From: an uncultured Bifidobacteriales bacterium
Lineage (GTDB): Bacteria; Fibrobacterota; Fibrobacteria; UBA11236
NCBI GenBank assembly: GCA_964401245.1
Contig: CAYNXV010000001.1
Span: forward strand, 1 to 11,698
DNA: 11,698 bases
Reading direction: 5' to 3'
This document shows positions 182 through 11,698 of the stretch, in pieces. The notes under the pieces are model-generated. The model ran no database searches. It was not told the DNA's origin and worked only from the letters and a program-made list of their open reading frames with translations. The first letter of the stretch is position 1. The number at the start of each line of letters is the position of its first letter. A program made the translations under genes and the position numbers.

Positions 182-1120
182 CTAGTCCGGATCAACACTC
201 CGAAGATATGTTCTAACCTGGTGCCGGAACTGATCATAGCTCAGTTTAAGACGTTGGGAAGCCTCCTTCTGGTTACCGGAACTTTCCTCCAAAGCTCGAA
301 CCAATAACTGACGTTTGAAAGCCACCACCTGTTCCTCATACCCGCTTTCACTCGGCATGCGCGACCCGGAAATTTCCGGTGGGAGGTCTTCCACCGAAAT
401 GACTTCGTCCAAGGAGTAGCAACAGCACCGTTCCACGACATTTTTCAGTTCCCGGATATTCCCCGGCCAGTGATACTCCTGCAAACGTTTCATAGCGTGA
501 GGACTAAAACTTGCGGCCTCCAGATTTGGAATTTCCTCCTTCAAAACCTTTACGAAATACTCGACCAGGAGAGGGATTTCCTCCCTTCTATTACGAAGTG
601 GGGGCAATTCCAAGGTGGCGAAGGCCAACCTGTCATATAAATCCGCCCTGAAGTCCCCGCTCGATATAAGTGCTTCCAGATCCGCGTTGGTCGCGCTCAC
701 TATGCGTACGTCAACCTTGATGGTCTCGTTGCCCTTCAGTCTTTGAAATTGCTGGTACTCGACTACACGGAGAATTCGTTCCTGGAAGGTCGGGCTCATG
801 TTCCCCACCTCGTCCAAAAAAAGGGTTCCGCCATTTGCCTGTTCCAACTTGCCGGAATACCGACGGTCGGCTCCGGTGAAGGCCCCCTTTTCGTGGCCAT
901 ATATCTCGGCCCCCGACAACTCGTCGTTGAAACCGGCACAATTCAAAGCGACGAAAGTCCTCTCCGCCCTCGGACTCCGGTCATGGAGATTCCGGGCAAT
1001 CAACTCCTTGCCCGTACCCCGCTCACCCCGGATCAAAACGGGCCGGGGAAGGCGGGCCACTCTCTCCAATTGCTGAAGCAGTGTTACCATGGCCGGTGAT
1101 GAGGCGATTCCTGGAAACAT
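182..1120 (-). CDS. pspF: PspF-type sigma54-dependent transcriptional activator (AAA+ enhancer-binding protein without an N-terminal receiver domain, with a C-terminal HTH).
   Basis: 312 aa. Walker A GERGTGKE. GAFTGA sigma54-contact motif in ...EIYGHEKGAFTGA... Walker B TLFLDEV. Conserved LRVVEY, RVGG-like segment, RADLYDRLA, WPGNIRELKNVVER. C-terminal HTH NQKEASQRLKLSYDQFRHQV. The length and the lack of a regulatory N-domain match PspF rather than NtrC. It is divergent from pspA. Confidence 0.88.
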   Translation of the reverse strand: MFPGIASSPAMVTLLQQLERVARLPRPVLIRGERGTGKELIARNLHDRSPRAERTFVALNCAGFNDELSGAEIYGHEKGAFTGADRRYSGKLEQANGGTLFLDEVGNMSPTFQERILRVVEYQQFQRLKGNETIKVDVRIVSATNADLEALISSGDFRADLYDRLAFATLELPPLRNRREEIPLLVEYFVKVLKEEIPNLEAASFSPHAMKRLQEYHWPGNIRELKNVVERCCCYSLDEVISVEDLPPEISGSRMPSESGYEEQVVAFKRQLLVRALEESSGNQKEASQRLKLSYDQFRHQVRTYLRSVDPD

Positions 1121-1192
1121 GGTTGATAATTATATCAAAAACCGTAGGAAATGTGTGATCCCGATCGGAATTGCCAGGCTTTTTCAAAAAAG

Positions 1193-1227
1193 TGGTGATT
1201 TTCACCAATGAGTGGCGTAATTCACCA
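1193..1227. promoter_or_regulatory. Two adjacent 15-bp inverted repeats, putative PspF upstream activating sequences (UAS). The first is the perfect palindrome TGGTGA-TTT-TCACCA (1193-1207). The second is the imperfect TGGCGT-AAT-TCACCA (1213-1227).
   Basis: A perfect 6-3-6 palindrome and a near-copy 20 bp away centre to centre (two helical turns). They lie about 70-85 bp upstream of the sigma54 -24 element, in the pspF/pspA divergent intergenic region. This geometry is typical of enhancer-binding-protein dimer sites. Confidence 0.4.
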
Positions 1228-1277
1228 TCGAAAAATGTTAAGATTTATGTTTTCAAGACGATTTTATGAATTCCGAT

Positions 1278-1292
1278 TGGCACAATAATCGC
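1278..1292 (+). promoter_or_regulatory. sigma54 (RpoN) -24/-12 promoter for the pspA operon.
   Basis: TGGCAC-aataa-TCGC: GG (1279-1280) and GC (1291-1292) are separated by exactly 10 nt, matching TGGCAC-N5-TTGCW. It lies about 45 bp upstream of the pspA ATG and downstream of the palindromes. A divergent sigma54 activator gene sits next to it. Confidence 0.6.
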
Positions 1293-1336
1293 GTTAACCT
1301 CCTTACAAACCTGTACACCCGATAAGGAGGCCGGTC

Positions 1337-2074
1337 ATGGGCATACTCAAGCGTTTAAAGGAAATCATCGAAGGTAATATCCACGAGCAACTGGATAGGG
1401 TAGACGATCCTGAAGCCCGGATCAATCAGATTCTCAGGGACCTCGAAACCGGTTTGGTTGAATTACGACAAACATTGGCCAATGCCATGGCCAACCATCA
1501 TATCAGCCTCCAAAACCGAGATAACCTGGTAAAAGAAGCCCAGGAATGGGACGACCACGCCGCCCGTGCGCTCAAAGCCGGTGACGAACCCCTAGCGCTG
1601 AAAGCCCTGGAAAAAAAACTGTATTACAAAAATAGAATTCATATGGCCGAGGAACAGGTCGCAGATGACGCCGCGCTTGTCGAACAGATAAGAGGTGACC
1701 TGCTCCGGGTGGAGGAGCGATACCACGAAGTCCGAGTCCGCAGAGACACGCTGGTTGCGCGCAATCGCAGTGCCTCCGCTAGAGGACGAGTTTTGGGAGC
1801 CACCGACAAGTTAGAGGGTCGATTACCCGGATTGGGCCATGCCGACGATGCAGTGCGCCGGATGGATGATTTGGAAACAAAGCTGGATCATACCTATGCC
1901 CAATATCAGGCCCGGGTACAATTGGCTACCGAAGGGATTGCGGGCGACGTCGAGCGTCAGGTAAAGGCGCTCAAGGCCAAGGAGGACTTAGACGCTGAAA
2001 TGGCCTCGCTAAAAGCGAGAATTTCGAGAACGGATTCCCAATCCAGTGGCGATACGAGTCCGTACAATGGCTGA
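1337..2074 (+). CDS. pspA: Phage shock protein A (PspA/IM30/Vipp1 family, ESCRT-III-like coiled-coil membrane-stress effector).
   Basis: 245 aa. N-terminus MGILKRLKEIIEGNIHEQLDRVDDPEARINQILRDLETGLVELRQTLA aligns with the E. coli PspA N-terminus ([44 protein letters not shown]). Predicted all coiled coil. AAGGAGG RBS at 1324-1330. Directly downstream of the sigma54 promoter. Confidence 0.88.
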   Translation: MGILKRLKEIIEGNIHEQLDRVDDPEARINQILRDLETGLVELRQTLANAMANHHISLQNRDNLVKEAQEWDDHAARALKAGDEPLALKALEKKLYYKNRIHMAEEQVADDAALVEQIRGDLLRVEERYHEVRVRRDTLVARNRSASARGRVLGATDKLEGRLPGLGHADDAVRRMDDLETKLDHTYAQYQARVQLATEGIAGDVERQVKALKAKEDLDAEMASLKARISRTDSQSSGDTSPYNG

Positions 2075-2107: not shown

Positions 2108-2743
2108 ATGGCGCTAGGGTTTCTTTTACCGGAATGGTTGCGTGAGTTCCTGATTTTTTCGGTCCAAAGGTCTCAGCTACCCTATACCATTATCCTGTTA
2201 TGCCTGCTCGTGTACTGGGTTCTGGTGATTGCCGGGGCTTTCGATATCGAGTTTTTCGGGGTGGATGTCGACGCGGATTTGGAAACACCCGAGGGCCCAT
2301 TCCAATGGCTCCTTTCTCTATTCAACATCGGCGAGCTGCCAGTAATGGTGATCATATCTTTCATGATATTGGGACTTTGGACCACTGCCATGATCACGGG
2401 CATGTTTATGCCGGAAGGAGTATCCTGGCTTTTCCGGCTGGCTTTATTGCCGGCCAATATCATCATCGGAGCGATGCTGGCATTGCCTTTAATAAAGCCG
2501 GTAGCCTGGCTGTTCCGCCAGAACGCGGCATCCCGGGAGATAATCAGGGAGGAAGGAAGCCTGGCAAACCTGCGCTCCTCTCTCGAACCTGGATTTATGG
2601 GCCAGGCGCTGATAAACCGAAGGGGAACCCCCGTGATTCTTAATGTGAAACTGGCGGAGGGAGAAGCATCCCTCAATTCGGGTTCCGAAGTAGTTGTCCT
2701 TGCCAAAGAAGGTGATTTTTACCGCGTCAAAAGGTTCAGCTGA
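2108..2743 (+). CDS. YqiJ-like (DUF1449 / NfeD-type) inner-membrane protein, the usual partner of YqiK flotillin. Multi-pass membrane N-terminal part and C-terminal OB-fold-like soluble domain.
   Basis: 211 aa. Hydrophobic helices (IILLCLLVYWVLVIAGAF; LPVMVIISFMILGLWTTAMITGMF; LALLPANIIIGAMLALPLI). Acidic D-x-D-x-D loop FFGVDVDADLETPEG. C-terminal beta-rich tail (TPVILNVKLAEGEASLNSGSEVVVLAKEGDFYRVKRF). GGAGG RBS at 2098-2102. 33 bp after pspA and immediately before the flotillin gene, the same order as the E. coli yqiJ-yqiK pair. Confidence 0.65.
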   Translation: MALGFLLPEWLREFLIFSVQRSQLPYTIILLCLLVYWVLVIAGAFDIEFFGVDVDADLETPEGPFQWLLSLFNIGELPVMVIISFMILGLWTTAMITGMFMPEGVSWLFRLALLPANIIIGAMLALPLIKPVAWLFRQNAASREIIREEGSLANLRSSLEPGFMGQALINRRGTPVILNVKLAEGEASLNSGSEVVVLAKEGDFYRVKRFS

Positions 2744-2765: not shown

Positions 2766-4862
2766 ATGTTAGATAATTTCATCAACCTCATTGGGGGACT
2801 GGGAGCCGTGCTGGCCATCATCAGCGTTTTGCTGTTCTTCGGCATCATGGCTTTCGTAGTCAAGCTTTTCAAAAAGGTTCCCCAGGGTCAGGCCATTGTC
2901 CGGACCGGTTGGGGTAAGCCTAGAGTCAGTTTTACCGGCATGTTCGTCATACCAGTCCTCCACCGCATGGAAGTCATGGATATAAGCGTCAAAAGGGTTG
3001 ATATAGATAGGATGAAGGAGGATGGGCTGATTTGCCGCGACAACCTTCGAGCGGATATTAAGGTGACCTTTTTCGTCGGAGTTAATAATACCGAGCAGGA
3101 TGTGCTCAAAGTGGCCCAATCCCTGGGGGTTTCCAAGGCGAGCGATCCACAGGCATTGCGCGATTACTTCGATTCCAAGTTCTCGGACGCCCTGAAAACA
3201 GCGGGGAAACAGTTTGACTTCGTTGACCTTTATGAAAAGCGCAATGGTTTTCGCAGCGCCATTCTGGGAGAAATTGGAACCGATCTGAACGGCTACCATC
3301 TCGACGATGCCGCCATCGACTATCTTGAGCAAACCGCCTTGGAGCATTTGAATACCAAAAACATTCTCGATGCCGAGGGAATCAAGAAGATCACGGAATT
3401 GACTGCAGCCCAGAACATCCTGGCGAACAATATTCGCAATGAAGAGAAAAAAGTCATAACCAAACAGGACGTGGAAGCGCGGGAAGCCATCCTGGAACTG
3501 GAAAGGCAATTGGCGGAAGCGGAGGAAAAACAACGTCGCGAGGTTGAATCGGTGAAGGCAAGGGAAGTCGCCGAAACCCGTAAAATCCAGGAGGAGCAAC
3601 GTCTCAAATCCGAAAGAGCTCGCATAACCAGCGACGAGGAAATCGCCATCGCTGAGGAGAACAAGGACAGGCAAATCATTGTCGCCCAAAAGAACAAGGA
3701 ACGTACCGACGCCGTAGAAACTGAAAGAGTGAAGAAGGATCAGGAATTGGAAGCGACGGAGCGAATAAAGGCAGTAAGTCTGGCCGACATCGAAAAGGAC
3801 AAGGCCATCGAAGTGGAAAAGAAGAACATCCAATTCATCATAAAGGAACGGGTGGTGGTGGAAAAGGCCGTAGTGGTCGAAGAGGAGAAAATCAAAGATA
3901 CCCGCGAATGGGCCGAGGCGGATCGTATCAAAAAGGTCGCCATTACCGGAGCCGAACAATTGGCTGAGGAGGCGCTCATAGCCGAAGTGAAGGCTGCCGA
4001 CGCCAAACGCCAATCAGCGGAGCTCTATGCCAAGGAAATCATCATCAAATCGGAAGCCGAAAGGGAAGCTAGCGCGCGCAAGGCCGAGGCTATGAAGCTT
4101 TTGGCCGAAGGACAAGTGGCCGAGGTGGCTGCACCTGGATTGGGCAAGGCCAAGATACAGGAAGCCATGGCCGACGCCCTGCAAAAAGAAGGGACGGCGG
4201 AAGCAACTGTAATAGAACGCAAGGGATTCGCTGCAGCCACGGTCACCGAAAAACAAGGAACCGCAGAAGCTGCGATCATCCAGAAAAAAGGCACCGCTGA
4301 AGCCAACATCATGCACGCCAAGTACCACAGCGAAGCGGAAGGTATCAAGGAAAAGGCCGACGCCATGAAAATACTGGACGCCGTCGGAAAGGATCACGAG
4401 GAGTTCAAGCTCAAGCTCGACAAGGAACTCCAGGTCGATCTGGCGGGCATAGATATGCAGCGTCAACTGGCGGAATCGCAGGCAGAAGTCATACGTGAAG
4501 GCCTCAGAACCGCCCGCATAGACATAGTGGGAGGCGAAAGTACGTTTTTCGAGCAAATCGCCGGGGCCATCACCAAGGGGAAAACCTGGGATCGCATGGT
4601 CGACAATTCCGCTGTGCTCAGAGACGTGAAGGACACCTTCTTCAATGGCGACGGAGAATACTTCAAGTCCCAAATGAAAAAGTTCGTGGAGCAATTCGCT
4701 ATCAGCTCGGACGACGTGAAGAATATGAGCGTGGCAGCCTTGCTTGCCAAGATGGTCCAGCTCGCGGATGACAAAAAGGATCGTACCGCCTTGCAATCCA
4801 TGCTTTCGGTGGCCGACGGGATGGGAATGGGAGGCAAAAAAGGCTTCTCACTGCTGGGATGA
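2766..4862 (+). CDS. yqiK: Flotillin-family SPFH/Band-7 protein (YqiK-like): N-terminal TM anchor, SPFH domain, long E/A/K-rich coiled-coil region with EA repeats.
   Basis: ATG at 2766 preceded by AGGAGA (2752-2757). The track's upstream extension begins with TTG at 2694 and overlaps the yqiJ-like gene, so 2766 is preferred. TM segment LIGGLGAVLAIISVLLFFGIMAFVV. SPFH signature QGQAIVRTGWGKPRVSFTGMFVIPVLHRMEVMDISVKRVDI. About 450 aa of charged alpha-helical sequence and a terminal flotillin-like tail. Confidence 0.85.
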   Translation: MLDNFINLIGGLGAVLAIISVLLFFGIMAFVVKLFKKVPQGQAIVRTGWGKPRVSFTGMFVIPVLHRMEVMDISVKRVDIDRMKEDGLICRDNLRADIKVTFFVGVNNTEQDVLKVAQSLGVSKASDPQALRDYFDSKFSDALKTAGKQFDFVDLYEKRNGFRSAILGEIGTDLNGYHLDDAAIDYLEQTALEHLNTKNILDAEGIKKITELTAAQNILANNIRNEEKKVITKQDVEAREAILELERQLAEAEEKQRREVESVKAREVAETRKIQEEQRLKSERARITSDEEIAIAEENKDRQIIVAQKNKERTDAVETERVKKDQELEATERIKAVSLADIEKDKAIEVEKKNIQFIIKERVVVEKAVVVEEEKIKDTREWAEADRIKKVAITGAEQLAEEALIAEVKAADAKRQSAELYAKEIIIKSEAEREASARKAEAMKLLAEGQVAEVAAPGLGKAKIQEAMADALQKEGTAEATVIERKGFAAATVTEKQGTAEAAIIQKKGTAEANIMHAKYHSEAEGIKEKADAMKILDAVGKDHEEFKLKLDKELQVDLAGIDMQRQLAESQAEVIREGLRTARIDIVGGESTFFEQIAGAITKGKTWDRMVDNSAVLRDVKDTFFNGDGEYFKSQMKKFVEQFAISSDDVKNMSVAALLAKMVQLADDKKDRTALQSMLSVADGMGMGGKKGFSLLG
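4186..4320 (+). repeat. Degenerate tandem 33-nt (11-codon) repeats inside the flotillin CDS, encoding KEGTAEATVIER / KGFAAATVTEK / QGTAEAAIIQK / KGTAEANIMHAK.
   Basis: Four consecutive units with conserved G-T/A-A-E-A core at both nucleotide and protein level. This is typical of flotillin C-terminal EA repeats. Confidence 0.5.
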
Positions 4863-7800
4863 GCGCGGAGACCAAGCAACCCGTAGAAGTCCTCGAACAG
4901 GGCACCTACGAGATTATCCAGGCACGCCTGCGGGAACAGACCGAAAACCTGCGGCAGCGCCTGGATAATCTCAATTCGGCTCGTAAGGAGGTTTTCGGGT
5001 CCATCGAAACGACCTTGCTCGGTAACTCCCGGCTCACCACCGAGTATAATTGCAAGCCACGGGATATGGTTAGCATCGGGTCCCGCTTCCTGTTCGGCTT
5101 CAATATCCATATGGGCCTGAAAAGCGTCACCCGCCCGGAAGACGTGTTTTCCATTTATCGCTACTCGGAACAGGAGTTGCTCCCCGATAGTCTTGACGTC
5201 ATCAATGACCCGAGATTCCAGGAAAATTTTCAGGATCTGTACAAGTACTACAAAGACACCGCCTTTAAGCGCTTTTCTCGCCAAGGACCCTTTCTTTTCA
5301 TGGTGTTCCGGGTCGGCAAAGTTGTATCCGACATCAAGGTCTTCAAATGGCTGGTAGAAGGGGAGAACCTGCGCTACGTGGACAATCGGTCCGAGAGCGA
5401 ATACAGGTACCCGTCTCAGCATGAATTCGAATGGACCCGCACCCACCGGGATCGCCATCGTAGCGGCCGCCATCCTCACGTAAGCATCGAGGATAAGGTC
5501 TTTGTCGAAACCGTCGGGGGTAATCTCACCGTCAAAATCGAGGACAATACCGATGATGGAGAGGGGGTTTTCAGCGAACCCGTGGTCAACGCCGATCAAA
5601 CACTGGACGATGCGGAGATCTTTTACGCCTCTCTGGGAAACCTCATCCTCATGAAAATCCGGCCCTACCTTGAGGAGAAATACCGCTATTTCGTTTTCAG
5701 CCAGAAGACCCGGACCTGCCTCAGAATGGACGGTATCGAAAAGGCCTGCGTACTTTTGCCGGACGACCACGGTATCATCTTCTCCAACGGCTATTTTCTA
5801 CAAAATGGAGAGGCCAAGGTATTCGAAAACCCGGCTGCGGACATGCTTTTCGATCGCCGTGTCGCAAGTCCCAATGGCGAAGATACCTTGTTCGCCTTCC
5901 ATGATCGCCAAACGGGCGCTTATAATTTGTTGAGCTACAATCTCATTGAACAAACGGTCGAAATCCCCATAACCTGTCACGGCTTTACGCTTTTCGAGAA
6001 TGGGGTGATGTTGGTATTCCGCGACTCCGGCGAATCTCAGAAGCACCATATGGTTCAGTTCTGGAGAACGCCTTTCACCGGATCGTCCCATATTCTCACA
6101 TCGGAGGAGACCACTTCGGAGGCCCACCGCTTTCTGCTGAAACTGGGCAACAAGGACGTCGTACGGGCCATGGCCGAATGCAGGGAATTGATTACCCTGG
6201 TGGTGAAAGGCGAATCCTACGCCGACGTCTATGCTGACCTGGTTCGCAAATCCGGAACAATCCTCGACACCTATTTCTGGCTCGGAGACGAAAAGGCCGA
6301 AAACCTTGCGGCTGCGGTTTCCTCCTTACGGGATACGAGTAAACAGGCCTTGGATGAATTCGAAAAAGTCAGACGGGTTCGAATCCATACAACCCAGGAG
6401 ATTCACCGCGTTTCCGAAGTCTGCCGCAAGACTCTGGCCGCCATCGCAGCGACCGCATTTTCCGAAATGCAGGAGTTTGTGGATAATCTGGGAAAACTGC
6501 GCACATTGCGGGGGGAGACAATCACCCTGAAGAATTTGCGATATGCGGACCTACCCCAAATCGAAGGGCTTGAAAAGGAGATTGCGGAGGCGCTGTCCCA
6601 CCTCAGCCGGCGCTGCGTCGAATTCCTCCTGCAGCCCGATTCCCTCGATGGGTACCGTACATCCATTCAGGAGGTGGAATCACAAATCCCCGCCATCGCG
6701 AAGGTTGCCGAAGCCGATGAACTCGATAAGCGGCTTGTGCAAAGCGGATCCGAACTGGAACTCCTTATCGATATCGTCTCCAATCTTAAAATAGACGATA
6801 CTACCCAGAGCACTGAAATTGTCGACCGCATCAGCAGCCTGTTTGCGGAGCTCAACAAGTGCAAGGCTTTGTTGCGCAATCGGCGCCAGCAACTTGCGGG
6901 TGTCGAGGCCGCGGCTGAGTTCAACGTGCAAATGAAGCTGCTTGGCCAATCAGTGGTGAATTTTCTCGACTTGGCCGAAACACCCGAGCGGTGCGATGAA
7001 TCGCTTTCCAAGCTCATGGTGCAGCTGGAAGACCTGGAAGGCAAAGTAGCGGGATTCGACGAGTTTCTAGATGAAATTGGTCGTAAACGGGAAGAAATTT
7101 ACGGGGCCTTCGAAAGCCGCAAGATCCGGATTGTCGAGGATCGCAACCGTCAGGTGCAATCCTTGGAGCGTAGCGCCGAACGTATTCTCAAAAGCGTGGC
7201 AAATAAAGTGTCCCACATGGCCACCCCGGTGGAAATTAATGGGTACTTCGCCTCAGACCTCATGGTGGATAAGGCCCGCAGTCTTATAAAGCAGCTGAGA
7301 ACCCTGGGCGATCAAATCAAAGCCGATGGAATCGAAGCCAAGCTCAAGGCCTTGCAGGAGGAAGGACAACGCCAACTCAAGGATAAGCTCGATTTATACG
7401 AAGAGGGACAGGATGTCATCAAGCTGGGACGACATCGCTTCAGCGTCAATCGACAACCTTTGGAATTGACCACGGTACTCAAAGACGATGAATACTGGTT
7501 CCACCTGGGCGGAACCCGCTATTTCGAAAAAATCGAAGACTCTGCGTTTTTAGCCACCCGGCCGGTTTGGGTGCAAACTCTGGTCAGCGAAAATGACTCC
7601 GTGTACCGCGGAGAATACCTGGCATGGCAATTCCTCAAACAGGCCAGGGCCGGTCGCCTTTCGGGCCCTGACGGCGCACTCCTTTCCTGGGTGGAGGCCA
7701 GCGGATTGCGCGGCGAATTTCTGATGATTGTCCTGCATACCTTTATGGCCGGACGATATTCCGAAGGATACGTGAAAGGCCAACACGATGTGGATGCAGC

Positions 7801-10138
7801 CCGGATTCTTGAAGCCCTGCTTCCAATGGTGGCTTCGGCTGGACTGATGGTCCATACCAGTGCTGCTAGAACTGCCGGGCTTTACTGGTGGCATTTCCGC
7901 TTCGACCCCATAAAGCGTGATTTGATGGAAAATCGCTTGCGGGGCCATGCGGAAATCCTGTCGGTCTTTCCGGATGCTCCGGGCTCGCATGTTTATCGGG
8001 AAGAAATCCAAAAGTATTTGATCCCGGTTCTTGAGGAGGATGCCCTCTTCTTGGAATCCGGGAGTAGCGTCGAATCCCTTAGCACCGAAGCCGCGGGCTT
8101 TATTTTCGATTGGCGGATCTCAAGCGTATTGCGTCCGCCCGTTGACGCTGAAACCGCGGGCCTCTTGGAAGCCTTCGGAGATTCACTTCGCCTGAAAGGT
8201 CGATTGGCCGGATTTGAGAATATGCTCAAAGACCTCTCGGACCATCCCCGCGAAGCATTTTTACTGGCTCGCCATTGGCTTGCCGCAACCGCCGCCTCCC
8301 GCCCGGATAAAACTGGCTGGCAAAGCAGAGTGGATGAGTCCTGCCTCTGGGCTTTACTGGGGGGAATGGAACCCGGGCAGAAATCGGGTGCCTCCATGCA
8401 GGTCGAAGTGATTGGCATGCTGGGTGAACACAAGCAAATCGTAGATGGTCGCTATAATCTCGCTTACGATGATTTCGTGCAAAGATTGCTGGGATTCGAG
8501 AATGAAACCGTTCCCCGTTTTCAGGATTTTGAATCGCTTAGAAAGCAGCTTTCCGACGAAAAATCGGCTTCGTTGCGGCTCGATGAATTCAAACCCAGGG
8601 TTTTGGGCAGCTTCGTACGCAATCGGCTCATCGACAAAGTCTATCTACCCCTGATTGGCGACAACCTCGCCAAACAAATGGGCGTCGTGGGCGACAAACG
8701 CCGTACCGATTTGATGGGATTACTGCTCCTAATCTCCCCGCCCGGATACGGAAAAACCACACTTATGGAATACGTTGCCAGCCGCCTTGGCCTGGTTTTC
8801 ATGAAAATAAACGGTCCTGCCTTGGGGCATGAAGTCACCAGTCTCGATCCTTCACAGGCTCCTAACGCGAGCGCGGCCCAGGAAGTCGACAAACTGAACC
8901 TTGCCCTGGAGATGGGCGACAATGTCATGATTTACCTCGATGACATTCAGCATTGTCATCCCGAGTTTCTGCAGAAATTCATAAGCCTCTGCGATGGACA
9001 GCGGAAAATGGAAGGCCTGTGGCGAGGTAAGACGCGTACTTATGACCTACGCGGTCGCAAAGTCGCGGTGGTAATGGCCGGAAATCCCTATACTGAAATC
9101 GGAGAGACGTTCCGCATCCCGGATATGTTGGCTAATCGTGCGGACACCTATAATCTTGGCGACATCATCGGGGAGAATACAGGGCATTTCGAGCTCAGTT
9201 ATATCGAGAATGCAATGACATCCAACGTAGTTCTCCAGTCTCTGAACAACAAAAGCCGACAGGATCTCTTTCCCATGTTGCAGTTGGCCACAAATGGGAG
9301 TCGCGAGGGTCTGGAGTTCGAAGGTGCCTTCAGTGCGGAGGAGACCCAGGAAATCGTGGGAGTCCTCAAAAAAATGATCAGGGCCCGTGACGTCATTTTA
9401 AAAGTAAACCTCGAATATATCCGTAGTGCATCCCAAAGCGACGCATACAGGAGCGAACCCAGCTTCAAACTCCAGGGATCCTACCGGAACATGAACAAAA
9501 TAGCGGAGAAGATTCTTCCCGTGATGAACGATTCCGAGTTCGAAGCTTTATTGGCTGGGCATTATGAGGGAGAAAGTCAGACACTGACGGCAGGTGCGGA
9601 AGCGAATTTGCTCAAGTTCAAGTCCCTGAATGGCGTCTTGACCAAGGATGAGGCAGTTCGGTGGAAAGAAATATGCGAGTCCTTCAAGGCGCAAAATAAA
9701 GTTAAGCAACTTGGAGGCGACGCCATGGGGGCGATGCTGGGAGAAGTCATGACACTTGGAACCCGCCTGGGTGATATCGGCTCCATTCTGGAAAAAGGCA
9801 TAAATAATACAGGCGAACCTCGCATTCTTCGTCAGGAAATCGATTTGGGATGGGTGGAAAAAAACTACGACATGGGATGGGACACCATCAAGTTTGAAAT
9901 GGGAGATTGGATTGAAAGTCCGGAATTCTGGAAACGAGTTCGTTATTATGTCAGAACCATCCAACCTATTGTCCAGGAACTGGAACCCCTGCGCCGAACC
10001 CTTCTTGAAACCCCTATCGAAAATTGGCCCGCCGGTGAACAGGGCGAAAAATTAGAAGGTTTCAGACAAACCATGAATCGCATCCTTTGGACATATGGTG
10101 GCATGGTCAAGCTGCTGCGAATGGCTGGAAAAAAGTGA
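4859..10138 (+). CDS. Giant (1759 aa) uncharacterised multi-domain protein with one C-proximal MoxR/dynein-type AAA+ ATPase module. Translationally coupled to flotillin.
   Basis: A single uninterrupted 5.28-kb ORF. ATG 4859-4861 overlaps the flotillin stop TGA 4860-4862 (ATGA). N-terminal coiled coil, then a beta-rich region (about aa 60-410), then about 800 aa of alpha-helical sequence. AAA+ motifs: Walker A LISPPGYGKTT (GYGKTT at nt 8744-8761); Walker B VMIYLDDIQ (DD at 8939-8944); NP-type sensor VVMAGNPYTE; arginine-finger-like IPDMLANRAD. An alpha-helical tail of about 280 aa follows. Confidence 0.82.
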   Translation: MSAETKQPVEVLEQGTYEIIQARLREQTENLRQRLDNLNSARKEVFGSIETTLLGNSRLTTEYNCKPRDMVSIGSRFLFGFNIHMGLKSVTRPEDVFSIYRYSEQELLPDSLDVINDPRFQENFQDLYKYYKDTAFKRFSRQGPFLFMVFRVGKVVSDIKVFKWLVEGENLRYVDNRSESEYRYPSQHEFEWTRTHRDRHRSGRHPHVSIEDKVFVETVGGNLTVKIEDNTDDGEGVFSEPVVNADQTLDDAEIFYASLGNLILMKIRPYLEEKYRYFVFSQKTRTCLRMDGIEKACVLLPDDHGIIFSNGYFLQNGEAKVFENPAADMLFDRRVASPNGEDTLFAFHDRQTGAYNLLSYNLIEQTVEIPITCHGFTLFENGVMLVFRDSGESQKHHMVQFWRTPFTGSSHILTSEETTSEAHRFLLKLGNKDVVRAMAECRELITLVVKGESYADVYADLVRKSGTILDTYFWLGDEKAENLAAAVSSLRDTSKQALDEFEKVRRVRIHTTQEIHRVSEVCRKTLAAIAATAFSEMQEFVDNLGKLRTLRGETITLKNLRYADLPQIEGLEKEIAEALSHLSRRCVEFLLQPDSLDGYRTSIQEVESQIPAIAKVAEADELDKRLVQSGSELELLIDIVSNLKIDDTTQSTEIVDRISSLFAELNKCKALLRNRRQQLAGVEAAAEFNVQMKLLGQSVVNFLDLAETPERCDESLSKLMVQLEDLEGKVAGFDEFLDEIGRKREEIYGAFESRKIRIVEDRNRQVQSLERSAERILKSVANKVSHMATPVEINGYFASDLMVDKARSLIKQLRTLGDQIKADGIEAKLKALQEEGQRQLKDKLDLYEEGQDVIKLGRHRFSVNRQPLELTTVLKDDEYWFHLGGTRYFEKIEDSAFLATRPVWVQTLVSENDSVYRGEYLAWQFLKQARAGRLSGPDGALLSWVEASGLRGEFLMIVLHTFMAGRYSEGYVKGQHDVDAARILEALLPMVASAGLMVHTSAARTAGLYWWHFRFDPIKRDLMENRLRGHAEILSVFPDAPGSHVYREEIQKYLIPVLEEDALFLESGSSVESLSTEAAGFIFDWRISSVLRPPVDAETAGLLEAFGDSLRLKGRLAGFENMLKDLSDHPREAFLLARHWLAATAASRPDKTGWQSRVDESCLWALLGGMEPGQKSGASMQVEVIGMLGEHKQIVDGRYNLAYDDFVQRLLGFENETVPRFQDFESLRKQLSDEKSASLRLDEFKPRVLGSFVRNRLIDKVYLPLIGDNLAKQMGVVGDKRRTDLMGLLLLISPPGYGKTTLMEYVASRLGLVFMKINGPALGHEVTSLDPSQAPNASAAQEVDKLNLALEMGDNVMIYLDDIQHCHPEFLQKFISLCDGQRKMEGLWRGKTRTYDLRGRKVAVVMAGNPYTEIGETFRIPDMLANRADTYNLGDIIGENTGHFELSYIENAMTSNVVLQSLNNKSRQDLFPMLQLATNGSREGLEFEGAFSAEETQEIVGVLKKMIRARDVILKVNLEYIRSASQSDAYRSEPSFKLQGSYRNMNKIAEKILPVMNDSEFEALLAGHYEGESQTLTAGAEANLLKFKSLNGVLTKDEAVRWKEICESFKAQNKVKQLGGDAMGAMLGEVMTLGTRLGDIGSILEKGINNTGEPRILRQEIDLGWVEKNYDMGWDTIKFEMGDWIESPEFWKRVRYYVRTIQPIVQELEPLRRTLLETPIENWPAGEQGEKLEGFRQTMNRILWTYGGMVKLLRMAGKK

Positions 10139-10229
10139 CCCTAGTACCCATGAATAAGCGCAATGCCAGAAATGAGCACCCTAAGTACCCGGCTTGGATT
10201 TAGCCATCTCCCTAACGAAAGGAAACACT

Positions 10230-10607
10230 ATGAAATGCGCCAAATGTAAATCCCAAATGGATAAAATCGGTTACATGGGGATCGAAGTGGATAGATGTAA
10301 ATCCTGCTTTGGTATGTGGTTCGACGTGAATGAATTGCAGGATATTCTCAAACTAAAAGGCGGAACGGCCGTGGATATCGGCAATGAGTGGGAATTCAAA
10401 AATTCAAGCCAGATTGAAGATTACAGTTGCCCTGAAGATGGTTTCAAAATGATCAAAATGGTGGATCCAAAGCAAAGCCACGTTTGGTACGAATCATGTG
10501 GGCATTGTAAGGGTATTTTTTTGGATGCCACGGAGTTGAAAAAATTGAATGAAAGAACCCTGGTTTCGCTTTTCAAATCCATTACGGCGCCCGAAAGAAG
10601 AATTTGA
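10230..10607 (+). CDS. Small tandem zinc-ribbon protein (two TFIIB-type / PF13453-like CxxC...CxxC zinc ribbons).
   Basis: ATG at 10230 with AAAGGAAA about 8 nt upstream. The track's longer form from 10194 adds 12 aa lacking an RBS. Repeat 1: CAKCKSQM...VDRCKSCFGMWFDVNEL. Repeat 2: CPEDGFKM...YESCGHCKGIFLDATEL. Both have the zn-ribbon family WFD/FLD...EL motif. Visibly lower GC than the flanking genes. Confidence 0.72.
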   Translation: MKCAKCKSQMDKIGYMGIEVDRCKSCFGMWFDVNELQDILKLKGGTAVDIGNEWEFKNSSQIEDYSCPEDGFKMIKMVDPKQSHVWYESCGHCKGIFLDATELKKLNERTLVSLFKSITAPERRI

Positions 10608-10874
10608 ATATCGAATAGAAGACTACTTGCGAACATTGCAGTTCTAGCGGTTCCGCGAACATTCCCTGCAGAAGGAAGCTTAGATTGACATAGGCCGCAT
10701 TCACGTTCTCCTTTTGGTAAATATGCACTATGTTGCCGGATGCGCCGAAACGCAGGCGTACCGGCCCAAAAGGATCCATTTTCTCGTGGCAGGGGACTGG
10801 CAATGCGAATTCATCCCTTTCCGGATACTTGTTATATTCCTTAGCACTCCAAAACCTCTAGTTCCGGTGTCGCC

Positions 10875-11698
10875 ATGCTCATATTTCGGATCGTATCTCT
10901 ATGCCTGCTTTTCTGCCTCACCCAATCCTTCGCCGAGCCGCCGCGTAACCTTACCTCCGGTGAAATCCATCTCGCCCTCCGCAAGCTCAAGGTCCTGGGC
11001 ACGGTACTCTATGTGGCGGCCCATCCCGACGACGAAAACACCCGCCTTCTTTCGTATTTCGCCGGAGAAAGGCTATTGCGCACCGGATACCTTTCCCTCA
11101 ATCGCGGCGAGGGCGGGCAGAATCTTATCGGCCCGGAATTGGGCACGCTCCTAGGTGTCATCCGGACGCAGGAATTGCTGCGAGCCCGCTCCATCGACGG
11201 GGCGGAACAGTTTTTCACCCGGGCCATCGATTTCGGTTACTCCAAGTCGTCGGAAGAAAGTCTTTCCAAATGGGGGCACGAAGAAATCCTCTCCGATGTG
11301 GTGCGGGTAATCCGGAAATTTCGTCCCGACGTCATCGTAACCCGATTCACTCCCGAAGTGGGTGGGCATGGACACCACCTCGCATCGGCCATGCTGGCGA
11401 AGGAGGCTTTCGTCGCGGCCGCCGATTCGACCCGCTTCACCGATCAGCTTAGGGAGCTTCGACCTTGGCAGGCCCGGCGGGTTTATTGGAATGCATGGCG
11501 ACCGGGGGAGAGAACGGATTCGGCTTCGCTGCTGGGAGGGATTGACGGCGGTATTTTCAATCCCATATTGGGAGAATCTTATTCCGAAATCGCGGCGCGG
11601 AGCCGTAACAGCCATAAGAGCCAGGGATTCGGAACCATTCCCGTGCGAGGGACGGAGCCGGAAAAGTTCCAATATCTCGCGGGCGACAGCGTGTCGGG
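10875..11698 (+). CDS. PIG-L / LmbE-family (GlcNAc-PI de-N-acetylase-like) deacetylase with N-terminal signal peptide. Partial, continues past the window end.
   Basis: My own frame-0 translation: MLIFRIVSLCLLFCLTQSFA|EPP... gives a signal peptide. Zinc-binding signature VAAHPDDE, then LNRGEGG and GGHGHH, all hallmarks of the PIG-L superfamily. The frame is open through nt 11698, which is why the ORF track omits it. The overlapping track ORFs 10714-11154(+) and 11151-11672(-) are low-complexity alternatives. Confidence 0.8.
   Translation, partial: MLIFRIVSLCLLFCLTQSFAEPPRNLTSGEIHLALRKLKVLGTVLYVAAHPDDENTRLLSYFAGERLLRTGYLSLNRGEGGQNLIGPELGTLLGVIRTQELLRARSIDGAEQFFTRAIDFGYSKSSEESLSKWGHEEILSDVVRVIRKFRPDVIVTRFTPEVGGHGHHLASAMLAKEAFVAAADSTRFTDQLRELRPWQARRVYWNAWRPGERTDSASLLGGIDGGIFNPILGESYSEIAARSRNSHKSQGFGTIPVRGTEPEKFQYLAGDSVS

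What the first reader, a model, noticed from the sequence alone, without database searches (positions are those of the whole stretch)
8640..9200. AAA+ module carries a D-D Walker B (LDDIQ) instead of the catalytic D-E
Walker A GYGKTT and the NP sensor (AGNPYTE, as in MoxR ATQNP / dynein AAMNP) plus L-ANR-AD (compare MoxR LLDRF) place this in the MoxR/midasin/dynein/McrB clade. The second acidic residue of Walker B is Asp (DD at nt 8939-8944) rather than the glutamate that normally activates water for hydrolysis. This could mean a slow or regulated ATPase (a nucleotide-gated switch rather than a motor). Alternatively the catalytic Glu may be supplied from elsewhere, as in some non-canonical AAA+ proteins.
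Basis: partly seen in the sequence, partly recalled or inferred. Interest (0 to 1): 0.55.

Follow-up and report, generated by a model that had tools for sequence, protein, structure and literature searches.

The report
Flotillin-linked AAA+ ATPase with Asp-Asp Walker B
A giant ATPase encoded right behind a flotillin-like membrane-scaffold gene in a phage-shock (membrane stress) operon carries Asp-Asp where related ATPases have the catalytic Asp-Glu; this holds across the whole family, but it is a sequence detail whose effect on ATP turnover is still untested.

Summary
In the 1759-aa ORF 4859..10138 (+), Walker A is SPPGYGKTT (nt 8735-8761) and Walker B is VMIYLDDIQH (nt 8924-8953), with DD at nt 8939-8944.

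An AlphaFold2 model puts DD at the end of strand beta3, the expected Walker B position.

DD is neither an error nor strain-specific. In 270 homologues the two Asp are kept in 268/269 and 266/269 sequences, and none has Glu. In 81 genomes the second Asp codon alternates GAC/GAT and is never GAA/GAG.

The Walker A Lys, sensor-1 Asn, Arg finger and a candidate sensor-2 Arg are all about 100% conserved. The site therefore looks hydrolysis-competent, not degenerate as in NSF-D2.

The closest solved folds are the MoxR ATPases CbbQ and NorQ, and midasin is the best sequence-profile hit. However, the module lacks the MoxR helix-2 hairpin, the DE(I)NR box and any VWA partner.

The gene lies behind a flotillin/YqiK-like gene in 54 of 58 loci. 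Here it sits in a PspF/sigma-54/PspA operon.

Most likely this is a slow or partner-triggered ATPase acting on flotillin/PspA membrane assemblies. That is an inference, not a demonstration. Interest is modest.

The parts
4859..10138 (+). 1759-aa multidomain AAA+ protein (Pfam DUF3686 + DUF7902 + AAA/AAA_5; databases call it 'DNA repair ATPase')
   Evidence: ORF. Pfam hits: DUF3686 4.4e-183, DUF7902 1.8e-26, AAA 5.2e-07, AAA_5 4.1e-06. More than 3789 homologues.
4949..6277 (+). N-terminal DUF3686 domain (aa 31-473). Ravi et al. 2024 describe it as beta-propeller repeats.
   Evidence: Pfam hit. The architecture 'beta-propeller + coiled-coil + AAA-ATPase' comes from PMC11237479. The fold was not modelled here.
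7436..8644 (+). Mostly helical middle domain (aa 860-1262) just before the ATPase module; no solved structural relative
8624..9169 (+). AAA+ alpha/beta core (aa 1256-1437)
8735..8761 (+). Walker A, SPPGYGKTT (K1299)
   Evidence: K1299 is conserved in 260/260 sequences.
8810..8812 (+). [quoted passage not shown]
   Evidence: N in 245/265 sequences. Strand beta2 spans model residues 83-88. The role is inferred from general AAA+ knowledge.
8882..8884 (+). E1342, an invariant Glu in helix alpha2; candidate alternative acidic residue
   Evidence: Conserved in 268/268 sequences. Lies in model helix 107-122. Its distance to the nucleotide site could not be measured.
8924..8953 (+). Walker B, VMIYLDDIQH, with the D-D pair at nt 8939-8944
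   Evidence: Lies at the end of strand beta3 in the model. D1361 268/269, D1362 266/269. Codons GAC/GAT only, in 81 genomes.
9005..9046 (+). Pre-sensor-1 beta-hairpin (aa 1383-1396, KMEGLWRGKTRTYD) with an aromatic/basic tip
   Evidence: Two strands at model residues 153-158 and 161-166. The tip position is Y, W or F in 242/266 sequences.
9074..9097 (+). Sensor-1 motif MAGNPYTE (N1409)
   Evidence: N in 268/269 sequences. Follows strand beta4 in the model. Aligns with midasin 'AAQNP'.
9119..9145 (+). PDMLANRAD with R1427, the candidate Arg finger
   Evidence: R in 269/270 sequences. Aligns with midasin 'LPKSFVNRF'.
9464..9496 (+). FKLQGSYRNMN with R1543, a candidate sensor-2 arginine
   Evidence: R1543 in 256/257 sequences; G1540, S1541 and Y1542 are nearly invariant. 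The assignment rests on resemblance to G-x-S-x-R sensor-2 motifs and is an inference.
2766..4862 (+). Flotillin/YqiK-like SPFH membrane protein. Its stop codon overlaps the ATG of the AAA+ gene (ATGA).
   Evidence: Homologues are named flotillin or YqiK by their sources. Band_7 hits 1 of 36 homologues. A homologue lies upstream in 54/58 loci. Overlap shown.
2108..2743 (+). Multi-pass membrane protein, putatively NfeD/YqiJ-like
   Evidence: Sequence. The Pfam YqiJ_N hit is weak (E 0.56). A homologue lies upstream in 44/58 loci. A YqiJ/YuaF protein is part of the operon described in PMC11237479.
1337..2074 (+). PspA/IM30 (ESCRT-III-like) protein
   Evidence: Pfam PspA_IM30 2.9e-35. NCBIfam pspA 9.2e-30, below that model's cutoff.
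182..1120 (-). PspF-like sigma-54 activator, transcribed divergently
   Evidence: Pfam Sigma54_activat 2.6e-60. NCBIfam phageshock_pspF 4.1e-102.
1278..1293 (+). Sigma-54-type -24/-12 element, TGGCACAATAATCGCG, upstream of pspA
   Evidence: The match has 2 mismatches, and as a pattern it is not more frequent than chance (8 matches found, 5.1 expected). Only its position makes it credible.

Best explanation
The DD is the genuine, ancestral and selected Walker B of a large family of giant AAA+ proteins that travel with a flotillin/YqiK-like SPFH gene. In this window the gene is also part of a PspF/sigma-54-controlled pspA operon.

The ATPase module is a MoxR-like member of the pre-sensor-1-hairpin superclade. 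It keeps every other catalytic residue: Walker A Lys, sensor-1 Asn, Arg finger, and a sensor-2-like Arg.

The most likely mechanism is that ATP is bound and hydrolysed, but Asp1362 replaces Glu as the water-activating carboxylate. Its side chain is one methylene shorter. Basal turnover would then be slow and the ATP-bound oligomer long-lived, with hydrolysis probably triggered by a partner such as the flotillin or PspA assembly, or by the membrane. On this reading the protein is a timed assembly/disassembly or remodelling factor for SPFH/PspA membrane scaffolds rather than a fast threading motor.

Shown here: the motif, its position in the fold, its conservation, the fold affinity and the gene linkage. 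Inferred: slow or regulated hydrolysis and the identity of the substrate.
For: - Motif and coordinates.
- DD lies at the end of strand beta3 in a confident model.
- Conservation is 268/269 and 266/269 with no Glu.
- Only GAC/GAT codons occur in 81 genomes.
- K1299 260/260, N1409 268/269, R1427 269/270, R1543 256/257.
- By contrast, the non-hydrolysing DD domain NSF-D2 reads 'GTTSRKD..LNAFST' in the corresponding stretch where D1 has 'TNRPD'. It has lost the sensor-1 Asn. From prior knowledge it has also lost the SRH arginines; the D1 stretch shown stops before them.
- DnaA carries LLIDDIQF. From established knowledge it is a regulated ATPase with low intrinsic activity.
- Linkage: flotillin-like gene upstream in 54/58 loci and NfeD/YqiJ-like gene in 44/58; ATGA overlap with the flotillin gene; PspA and PspF in the window.
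- The same operon type is described in PMC11237479.
Against: - No biochemical data exist for any family member. Literature searches found none.
- Asp can act as an efficient catalytic carboxylate in some P-loop enzymes, so 'slow' does not follow automatically.
- The model has no nucleotide and I had no coordinates, so the reach of D1362 could not be measured.
- The flotillin identity of the neighbouring gene rests on database names and on a Band_7 hit in only 1 of 36 homologues.
- PspA linkage is weak or absent in most other loci.
Confidence: 0.5

Rival explanations
1. ATP-binding-only module. As in the D2 ring of NSF, the DD site holds ATP permanently to stabilise an oligomer, and no hydrolysis cycle is used.
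For: NSF-D2 has VVVDDIERL at its Walker B, whereas the hydrolysing D1 has IIFDEID. This shows that DD can mark a structural nucleotide site.
Against: This family keeps the sensor-1 Asn (268/269), the Arg finger (269/270) and a sensor-2-like Arg (256/257). NSF-D2 has lost the sensor-1 Asn. The protein has only one P-loop domain, so no second ring is available to do the work.
Confidence: 0.2
2. The catalytic carboxylate is supplied from outside Walker B. The candidates are the invariant E1342 in helix alpha2, E1413 in NPYTE, or a residue from the neighbouring subunit. D1362 would then only help to bind Mg2+.
For: E1342 is conserved in 268/268 sequences and E1413 in 253/270.
Against: E1342 lies in the first third of helix alpha2, 19 residues before the DD, not at a strand end next to the P-loop. 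To my knowledge no AAA+ precedent exists for a catalytic Glu at that position. Its geometry could not be checked. The strict retention of Asp at 1362, never Ala, Ser or Asn apart from three outliers, argues that this carboxylate itself matters.
Confidence: 0.12
3. The DD is a sequencing error or a substitution specific to this strain.
For: None.
Against: DD is present in 266-268 of 269 homologues and in all 81 genomes inspected at the DNA level.
Confidence: 0.01

Closest known systems
MoxR-family AAA+ ATPases (CbbQ, NorQ, RavA) and the related midasin/dynein AAA modules
   Same: - Midasin is the best profile hit, with an alignment through 'NP..G..LP...NR'.
- The pre-sensor-1 beta-hairpin is present.
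- Pfam AAA_5 hits all 21 tested family members.
   Different: - Walker B is DDIQH, not DE(I/M/F)N(R/L). MoxR proteins conserve the Glu and depend on it (PMC12657314).
- The model has no two-stranded helix-2 insert.
- No VWA/MIDAS partner is encoded in the window.
- The ATPase sits at the C-terminal end of a 1759-aa protein with a propeller, a coiled coil and a novel helical domain.
- Its genomic partner is a flotillin-like protein.
DnaA (replication initiator AAA+)
   Same: The Walker B core is identical: LLIDDIQF in DnaA (PDB 8bv3/8btg) against YLDDIQH here. From established knowledge, DnaA is a nucleotide switch whose hydrolysis needs an external trigger.
NSF D2 domain
   Same: A D-D Walker B (VVVDDIERL) within an AAA protein that acts on membrane-associated assemblies.
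   Different: NSF-D2 has lost the sensor-1 Asn and, from prior knowledge, does not hydrolyse ATP. This family keeps the sensor-1 Asn and the Arg finger. NSF belongs to the classical clade, which lacks the PS1 hairpin.
[quoted passage not shown] 2024, mSystems, PMC11237479)
   Same: This is the same family and the same operon type: PspA + YqiJ/YuaF-like TM protein + TM-band-7-flotillin + AAA+. The linkage was reproduced here in 54/58 loci.
   Different: That paper describes only the architecture and the neighbourhood. It does not mention the Walker B variant (no hit in text or supplement). The paper's operon has a CesT/Tir-like gene, which was not detected here. Here the operon is headed by a divergent pspF and a sigma-54-type promoter.
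Vps4 with ESCRT-III
   Same: An AAA+ ATPase genomically or functionally coupled to ESCRT-III-superfamily (PspA) membrane polymers. This is the analogy proposed in PMC11237479.

Membership tests
AAA+ superfamily | Walker A GxxGxGK[ST] on the loop after strand beta1 | tested here: met
   SPPGYGKTT. K1299 is conserved in 260/260 sequences. It follows strand beta1 in the model.
AAA+ superfamily | Walker B hhhhD(E) at the end of strand beta3 | tested here: met
   VMIYLD at the end of beta3. The first Asp is present. The second acidic residue is Asp rather than Glu.
AAA+ superfamily | Sensor-1 polar residue after beta4 and an Arg finger after alpha4 | tested here: met
   N1409 in 268/269 sequences and R1427 in 269/270. 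Positions in the model.
AAA+ superfamily | Alpha-beta-alpha core plus helical lid fold | tested here: met
   [not shown]
MoxR / clade 7 (MoxR, midasin, dynein, MCM) | Pre-sensor-1 beta-hairpin | tested here: met
   Strands at model residues 153-158 and 161-166, between alpha3 and beta4.
MoxR / clade 7 (MoxR, midasin, dynein, MCM) | Helix-2 insert: a beta-hairpin inserted in alpha2 (definition from PMC7973254 and PMC12657314) | tested here: not met
   Between beta2 (83-88) and alpha2 (107-122) the model shows only short helical turns and loop, with no strands, at pLDDT about 90.
MoxR / clade 7 (MoxR, midasin, dynein, MCM) | Conserved catalytic Glu in the Walker B box DE(I)NR | tested here: not met
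   The box reads DDIQH. Glu is never seen in 269 sequences. MoxR depends on this Glu.
MoxR / clade 7 (MoxR, midasin, dynein, MCM) | Pre-sensor-2 helical insert that repositions the lid | tested here: inconclusive
   A long extra helix (model residues 263-295) precedes the GSYR motif, but no coordinates were available to judge lid placement. CbbQ, dynein and midasin themselves lack this insert.
MoxR / clade 7 (MoxR, midasin, dynein, MCM) | Adjacent VWA/MIDAS-domain partner | tested here: not met
   No VWA domain appears in any window ORF scanned. This was not examined in the 80 related loci.
MoxR / clade 7 (MoxR, midasin, dynein, MCM) | Closest solved structures are MoxR proteins | tested here: met
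   [not shown]
Classical AAA clade (Cdc48, Vps4, NSF) | No pre-sensor-1 hairpin; second region of homology with two arginines | tested here: not met
   The hairpin is present. Only one conserved Arg occurs in that stretch; R1419 is variable, with Q, K or R. Pfam AAA nevertheless hits at 30.6 bits, mostly through the Walker A side.
DnaA/initiator clade | Fold affinity to the initiator clade (DnaA/Orc/Cdc6) | tested here: not met
   [not shown]
NSF-D2-type non-hydrolysing AAA domain | DD Walker B together with loss of sensor-1 Asn and Arg fingers | tested here: not met
   DD is present, but sensor 1 and the Arg finger are retained at about 100%. NSF-D2 sequence shown.
Flotillin/PspA-associated propeller-coiled-coil-AAA+ family (Ravi et al. 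2024; Pfam DUF3686-containing) | DUF3686 N-terminal domain plus a C-terminal AAA+ domain | tested here: met
   DUF3686 4.4e-183, DUF7902, AAA and AAA_5. The listed homologues have the same architecture.
Flotillin/PspA-associated propeller-coiled-coil-AAA+ family (Ravi et al. 2024; Pfam DUF3686-containing) | Gene directly downstream of a TM-band-7/flotillin gene, with a YqiJ/YuaF-like TM gene nearby | tested here: met
   The window order is 2108-2743, 2766-4862, 4859-10138. Flotillin is upstream in 54/58 loci and the NfeD/YqiJ-like gene in 44/58.
Flotillin/PspA-associated propeller-coiled-coil-AAA+ family (Ravi et al. 2024; Pfam DUF3686-containing) | N-terminal beta-propeller fold | not tested
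   Taken from PMC11237479.

The most novel reading that the evidence does not exclude
The flotillin-coupled DUF3686 ATPases would be a distinct, previously uncharacterised branch of MoxR-like AAA+ proteins. In this branch a compensated active-site pair, Walker B E->D together with N->Q two residues later (DDIQH against DE-I-N-R), creates a long-lived ATP state. DnaA reached the same DDIQ solution independently. That state would time the assembly or disassembly of SPFH/flotillin cages and PspA (ESCRT-III-like) polymers during membrane stress, making the protein a bacterial counterpart of Vps4 or NSF built on a different AAA+ clade.
Probability: 0.25. Interest if true: 0.6.

Novelty: new variant of a known kind. 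Interest (0 to 1): 0.35.

Why it matters
Bacterial flotillins and PspA are central to membrane organisation and repair. No ATP-driven remodeller has been shown experimentally for them in bacteria.

This family is large: more than 3789 database clusters and at least 586 species genomes. It is almost always encoded behind a flotillin gene, yet it is annotated as 'DNA repair ATPase' with no supporting evidence.

Knowing that its active site carries a selected Asp-Asp Walker B, with all other catalytic residues intact, gives a concrete and cheap experimental handle: D1362E/N, Q1364N and E1342Q variants. These can test whether the protein is a slow nucleotide timer or a motor, and whether flotillin or PspA triggers hydrolysis.

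On its own, the motif variant is a modest finding.

Tried and rejected
- Literature searches for 'DUF3686' and for 'DNA repair ATPase' + flotillin returned nothing. YqiK/NfeD/AAA+ searches gave no paper on this protein.
- DnaC was considered as a DD precedent and rejected. It has E170, i.e. DE.
- PADLOC defence models gave no meaningful hit, so an anti-phage system reading is not supported.
The source organism stays unknown.
- Pfam, NCBIfam and PDB sequence or profile searches with the flotillin-like protein gave no significant hit. Its identity had to be taken from homologue names and one Band_7 hit.
- The sigma-54 pattern search is not statistically enriched in the window. Only the position of the 1278-1293 site is suggestive.
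- The position of E1342 relative to the nucleotide could not be evaluated, because the tools return no model coordinates.
Full report
**1. What is in the window**

The window encodes the following genes.

| Coordinates | Strand | Product |
|---|---|---|
| 182-1120 | - | PspF-like sigma-54 activator |
| 1337-2074 | + | PspA/IM30 |
| 2108-2743 | + | 211-aa multi-pass membrane protein |
| 2766-4862 | + | 698-aa flotillin/YqiK-like protein |
| 4859-10138 | + | 1759-aa protein containing the finding |
| 10194-10607 | + | small Zn-ribbon protein |

The flotillin-like stop codon overlaps the start of the large gene (ATGA at 4859-4862).

Pfam finds the following in the large protein:
- DUF3686 (aa 31-473, E 4.4e-183)
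- DUF7902 (aa 594-678)
- at aa 1289-1419, both AAA (30.6 bits) and AAA_5 (27.3 bits)

**2. The observation**

- Walker A SPPGYGKTT (nt 8735-8761)
- Walker B VMIYLDDIQH (nt 8924-8953), with GAT GAC = D1361 D1362 at nt 8939-8944
- MAGNPYTE (N1409)
- PDMLANRAD (R1427)

An AlphaFold2 model of aa 1231-1759 was built on 72 homologues. Its mean pLDDT is 79, rising to 85-97 in the ATPase core. The element order is beta1 / P-loop / alpha1 / beta2 / alpha2 / beta3 / alpha3 / beta-hairpin / beta4.
- VMIYLD forms beta3, so DD sits exactly where Walker B belongs.
- N1409 follows beta4, the sensor-1 position.
- R1427 follows a short helix, the Arg-finger position.

The refutation 'a model places another segment as Walker B' therefore fails.

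**3. Is DD family-wide?**

Yes. The full-length search found more than 3789 homologous clusters. An exhaustive HMMER scan of 1.84 billion cluster representatives with the ATPase module found 361 representatives at E <= 1e-30. I aligned the 120 + 150 listed sequences, which reach down to 42% identity.

| Position | Conservation |
|---|---|
| 1361 | D in 268/269 |
| 1362 | D in 266/269; exceptions N, A, G; never E |
| I1363, Q1364, H1365 | 265-267 of 269 |

The box is therefore DDIQH.

At the DNA level, 80 species-representative genomes plus the window all have DD. They come from Bacteroidota, Planctomycetota, Verrucomicrobiota, Desulfobacterales, Hydrogenedentales, a Clostridia-type isolate and others. 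The second Asp codon is GAC in 47 and GAT in 34. The wobble base has changed repeatedly, yet the change to a purine, which would give Glu, is never fixed. This is direct evidence of selection for Asp over Glu.

Sequencing error and strain-specific substitution are both excluded.

**4. Is the site otherwise intact?**

| Residue | Role | Conservation |
|---|---|---|
| K1299 | Walker A Lys | 260/260 |
| N1409 | sensor 1 | 268/269 |
| R1427 | Arg finger | 269/270 |
| R1543 (in FKLQGSYRNMN) | candidate sensor 2 | 256/257 |
| N1318 (end of beta2) | glutamate-switch partner position in other AAA+ proteins | 245/265 |

This pattern differs from a degenerate, binding-only domain. NSF-D2, whose Walker B I confirmed as VVVDDIERL against IIFDEID in D1, reads 'GTTSRKD...LNAFST' where D1 has 'TNRPD'. 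It has lost the sensor-1 Asn.

I therefore favour a site that does hydrolyse ATP, with Asp as the carboxylate. The shorter side chain would plausibly make basal hydrolysis slow or dependent on a trigger.

DnaA provides a precedent for a DD switch-type AAA+. PDB entries 8bv3/8btg read LLIDDIQF, the same DDIQ core. DnaA's low intrinsic, externally triggered hydrolysis is established knowledge, not tested here. DnaC, which I first considered, is not a precedent because it has E170.

**5. Which AAA+ clade?**

- Foldseek lists NorQ, RuvB, MCM and CbbQ.
- A 21-sequence family profile hits midasin best. The AAA5 alignment covers Walker A, 'lLDEmN' opposite 'yLDDiq', and 'AAQNPqyqgGGrkgLPksfvNRF' opposite 'MAGNPytesGeafkiPdmLaNRa'.
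- The model has a two-stranded pre-sensor-1 hairpin (aa 1383-1396) with an aromatic/basic tip.

Membership is not established:
- The helix-2 beta-hairpin that characterises MoxR is absent from a confident part of the model.
- The Walker B Glu, on which MoxR ATPase activity depends, is replaced.
- No VWA partner is encoded in the window.
- Pfam's classical AAA model matches all members as well as AAA_5 does.

I file the module as a MoxR-like member of the PS1-hairpin superclade, not as a MoxR protein.

**6. A Glu from elsewhere?**

The only invariant Glu between Walker A and Walker B is E1342 (268/268). It lies in the first third of helix alpha2. E1413 (NPYTE) is 253/270. Without coordinates I could not measure distances to the nucleotide site. 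To my knowledge there is no AAA+ precedent for a catalytic residue at that spot. I keep this as a minor rival.

A more specific idea comes from the motif itself. MoxR, midasin and dynein read D-E-x-N, while this family and DnaA read D-D-x-Q. The acid is one methylene shorter and the amide one methylene longer. This may be a compensated pair, but that is speculation. The D1362E/Q1364N swap would test it.

**7. Context and likely role**

I examined 58 related genome loci with enough upstream sequence.

| Upstream feature | Loci (of 58) |
|---|---|
| homologue of the window's flotillin-like gene, same strand, often within 4-150 nt | 54 |
| homologue of the 211-aa membrane protein | 44 |
| weak PspA-like ORF | 6 |
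| adjacent PspF | 0 |

Homologues of the flotillin-like protein are named 'flotillin family protein' or 'YqiK' by NCBI, JGI and UniRef. The window protein itself has no Pfam, NCBIfam or PDB sequence hit. Band_7 is detected in only 1 of 36 homologues, so it is a divergent SPFH protein.

Ravi et al. [quoted passage not shown] They propose ATP-dependent membrane or scaffold remodelling. They do not mention the Walker B variant.

In this window the operon is preceded by a sigma-54-type element, TGGCACAATAATCGCG (1278-1293), and by two TGGTGA/TCACCA palindromes next to the divergent pspF. This fits membrane-stress induction, although the promoter match is not statistically significant on its own.

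The database name 'DNA repair ATPase' has no support in any of this. PADLOC defence models do not match either.

**8. Other anatomy**

**9. Verdict**

- The clade assignment is supported as a resemblance but not as membership.
- The mechanistic reading (slow or triggered ATPase acting on flotillin/PspA assemblies) is the best-supported inference, at about 0.5 confidence, but it is untested.
- Novelty is limited. The family and its operon are already catalogued, and non-canonical DD Walker B motifs are known in other AAA+ clades. What is new is the documentation of DDIQH as the invariant box of this MoxR-like, flotillin-linked family.
- Interest: 0.35.

Noticed in passing
window 1120-1337 (sites at 1193-1207, 1213-1227, 1278-1293): The intergenic region between the divergent pspF and pspA holds a sigma-54-type -24/-12 element, TGGCACAATAATCGCG, about 45 nt before the pspA ATG. 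It also holds two palindromes, TGGTGA-TTT-TCACCA and TGGCGT-AAT-TCACCA, that look like activator binding sites. The promoter pattern is not enriched over chance in the window (8 matches found, 5.1 expected).
   Followed up: partly
window 2766-4862: The flotillin/YqiK-like protein has no Pfam, NCBIfam or PDB sequence hit. Homologues at 55-84% identity are named flotillin or YqiK, but Band_7 is detected in only 1 of 36 of them. This is a divergent SPFH subfamily that current profile libraries cover poorly.
   Followed up: partly
window 4859-4862: The stop codon of the flotillin-like gene overlaps the ATG of the AAA+ gene (ATGA). This suggests translational coupling and matched stoichiometry.
   Followed up: no
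[not shown]
   Followed up: yes
window 4859-10138 and loci L001-L080: The database name 'DNA repair ATPase' (Pfam DUF3686 wording, PGAP product name) is not supported by any context. 54 of 58 loci place the gene behind a flotillin-like gene, and no repair genes were noticed nearby.
   Followed up: partly
window 8939-8953: The Walker B box reads D-D-I-Q-H where MoxR, midasin and dynein read D-E-x-N-(R/L). E->D is accompanied by N->Q two residues later, and DnaA shows the same DDIQ. This may be a compensated pair.
   Followed up: no
window 8813-8884: A strongly conserved loop, GHxVTSLDPxxAPN, lies between beta2 and alpha2, where pore loops or helix-2 inserts sit in other AAA+ proteins. It is followed by the invariant E1342. 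The loop has no aromatic pore-loop residue.
   Followed up: partly
window 1337-2074 versus loci L028, L059, L066, L073, L075, L076: PspA linkage is the exception. Only 6 of 58 other loci have a weak (E about 1e-4) PspA-like ORF upstream, and none has an adjacent pspF. The PspF/PspA-headed version in this window is a lineage-specific arrangement.
   Followed up: partly
protein P0074: A EukProt entry (1711 aa, 51% identical, same domain set) appears among the closest homologues. It is either a eukaryotic member of the family or bacterial contamination of a eukaryotic assembly.
   Followed up: no
window 10194-10607, 10714-11154, 11151-11672: Downstream lie a protein with two TFIIB-type Zn-ribbons and two ORFs without any family hit. 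None of them is conserved next to the AAA+ gene in the 80 related loci.
   Followed up: partly
proteins P0232, P0261, P0270, P0268: Rare divergent family members deviate at the active site. P0232 has D-N. P0261 has D-A. P0270 has N-G and has lost the Arg finger. P0268 keeps DD but has lost the sensor-1 Asn. They may be inactivated paralogues or fragments.
   Followed up: no
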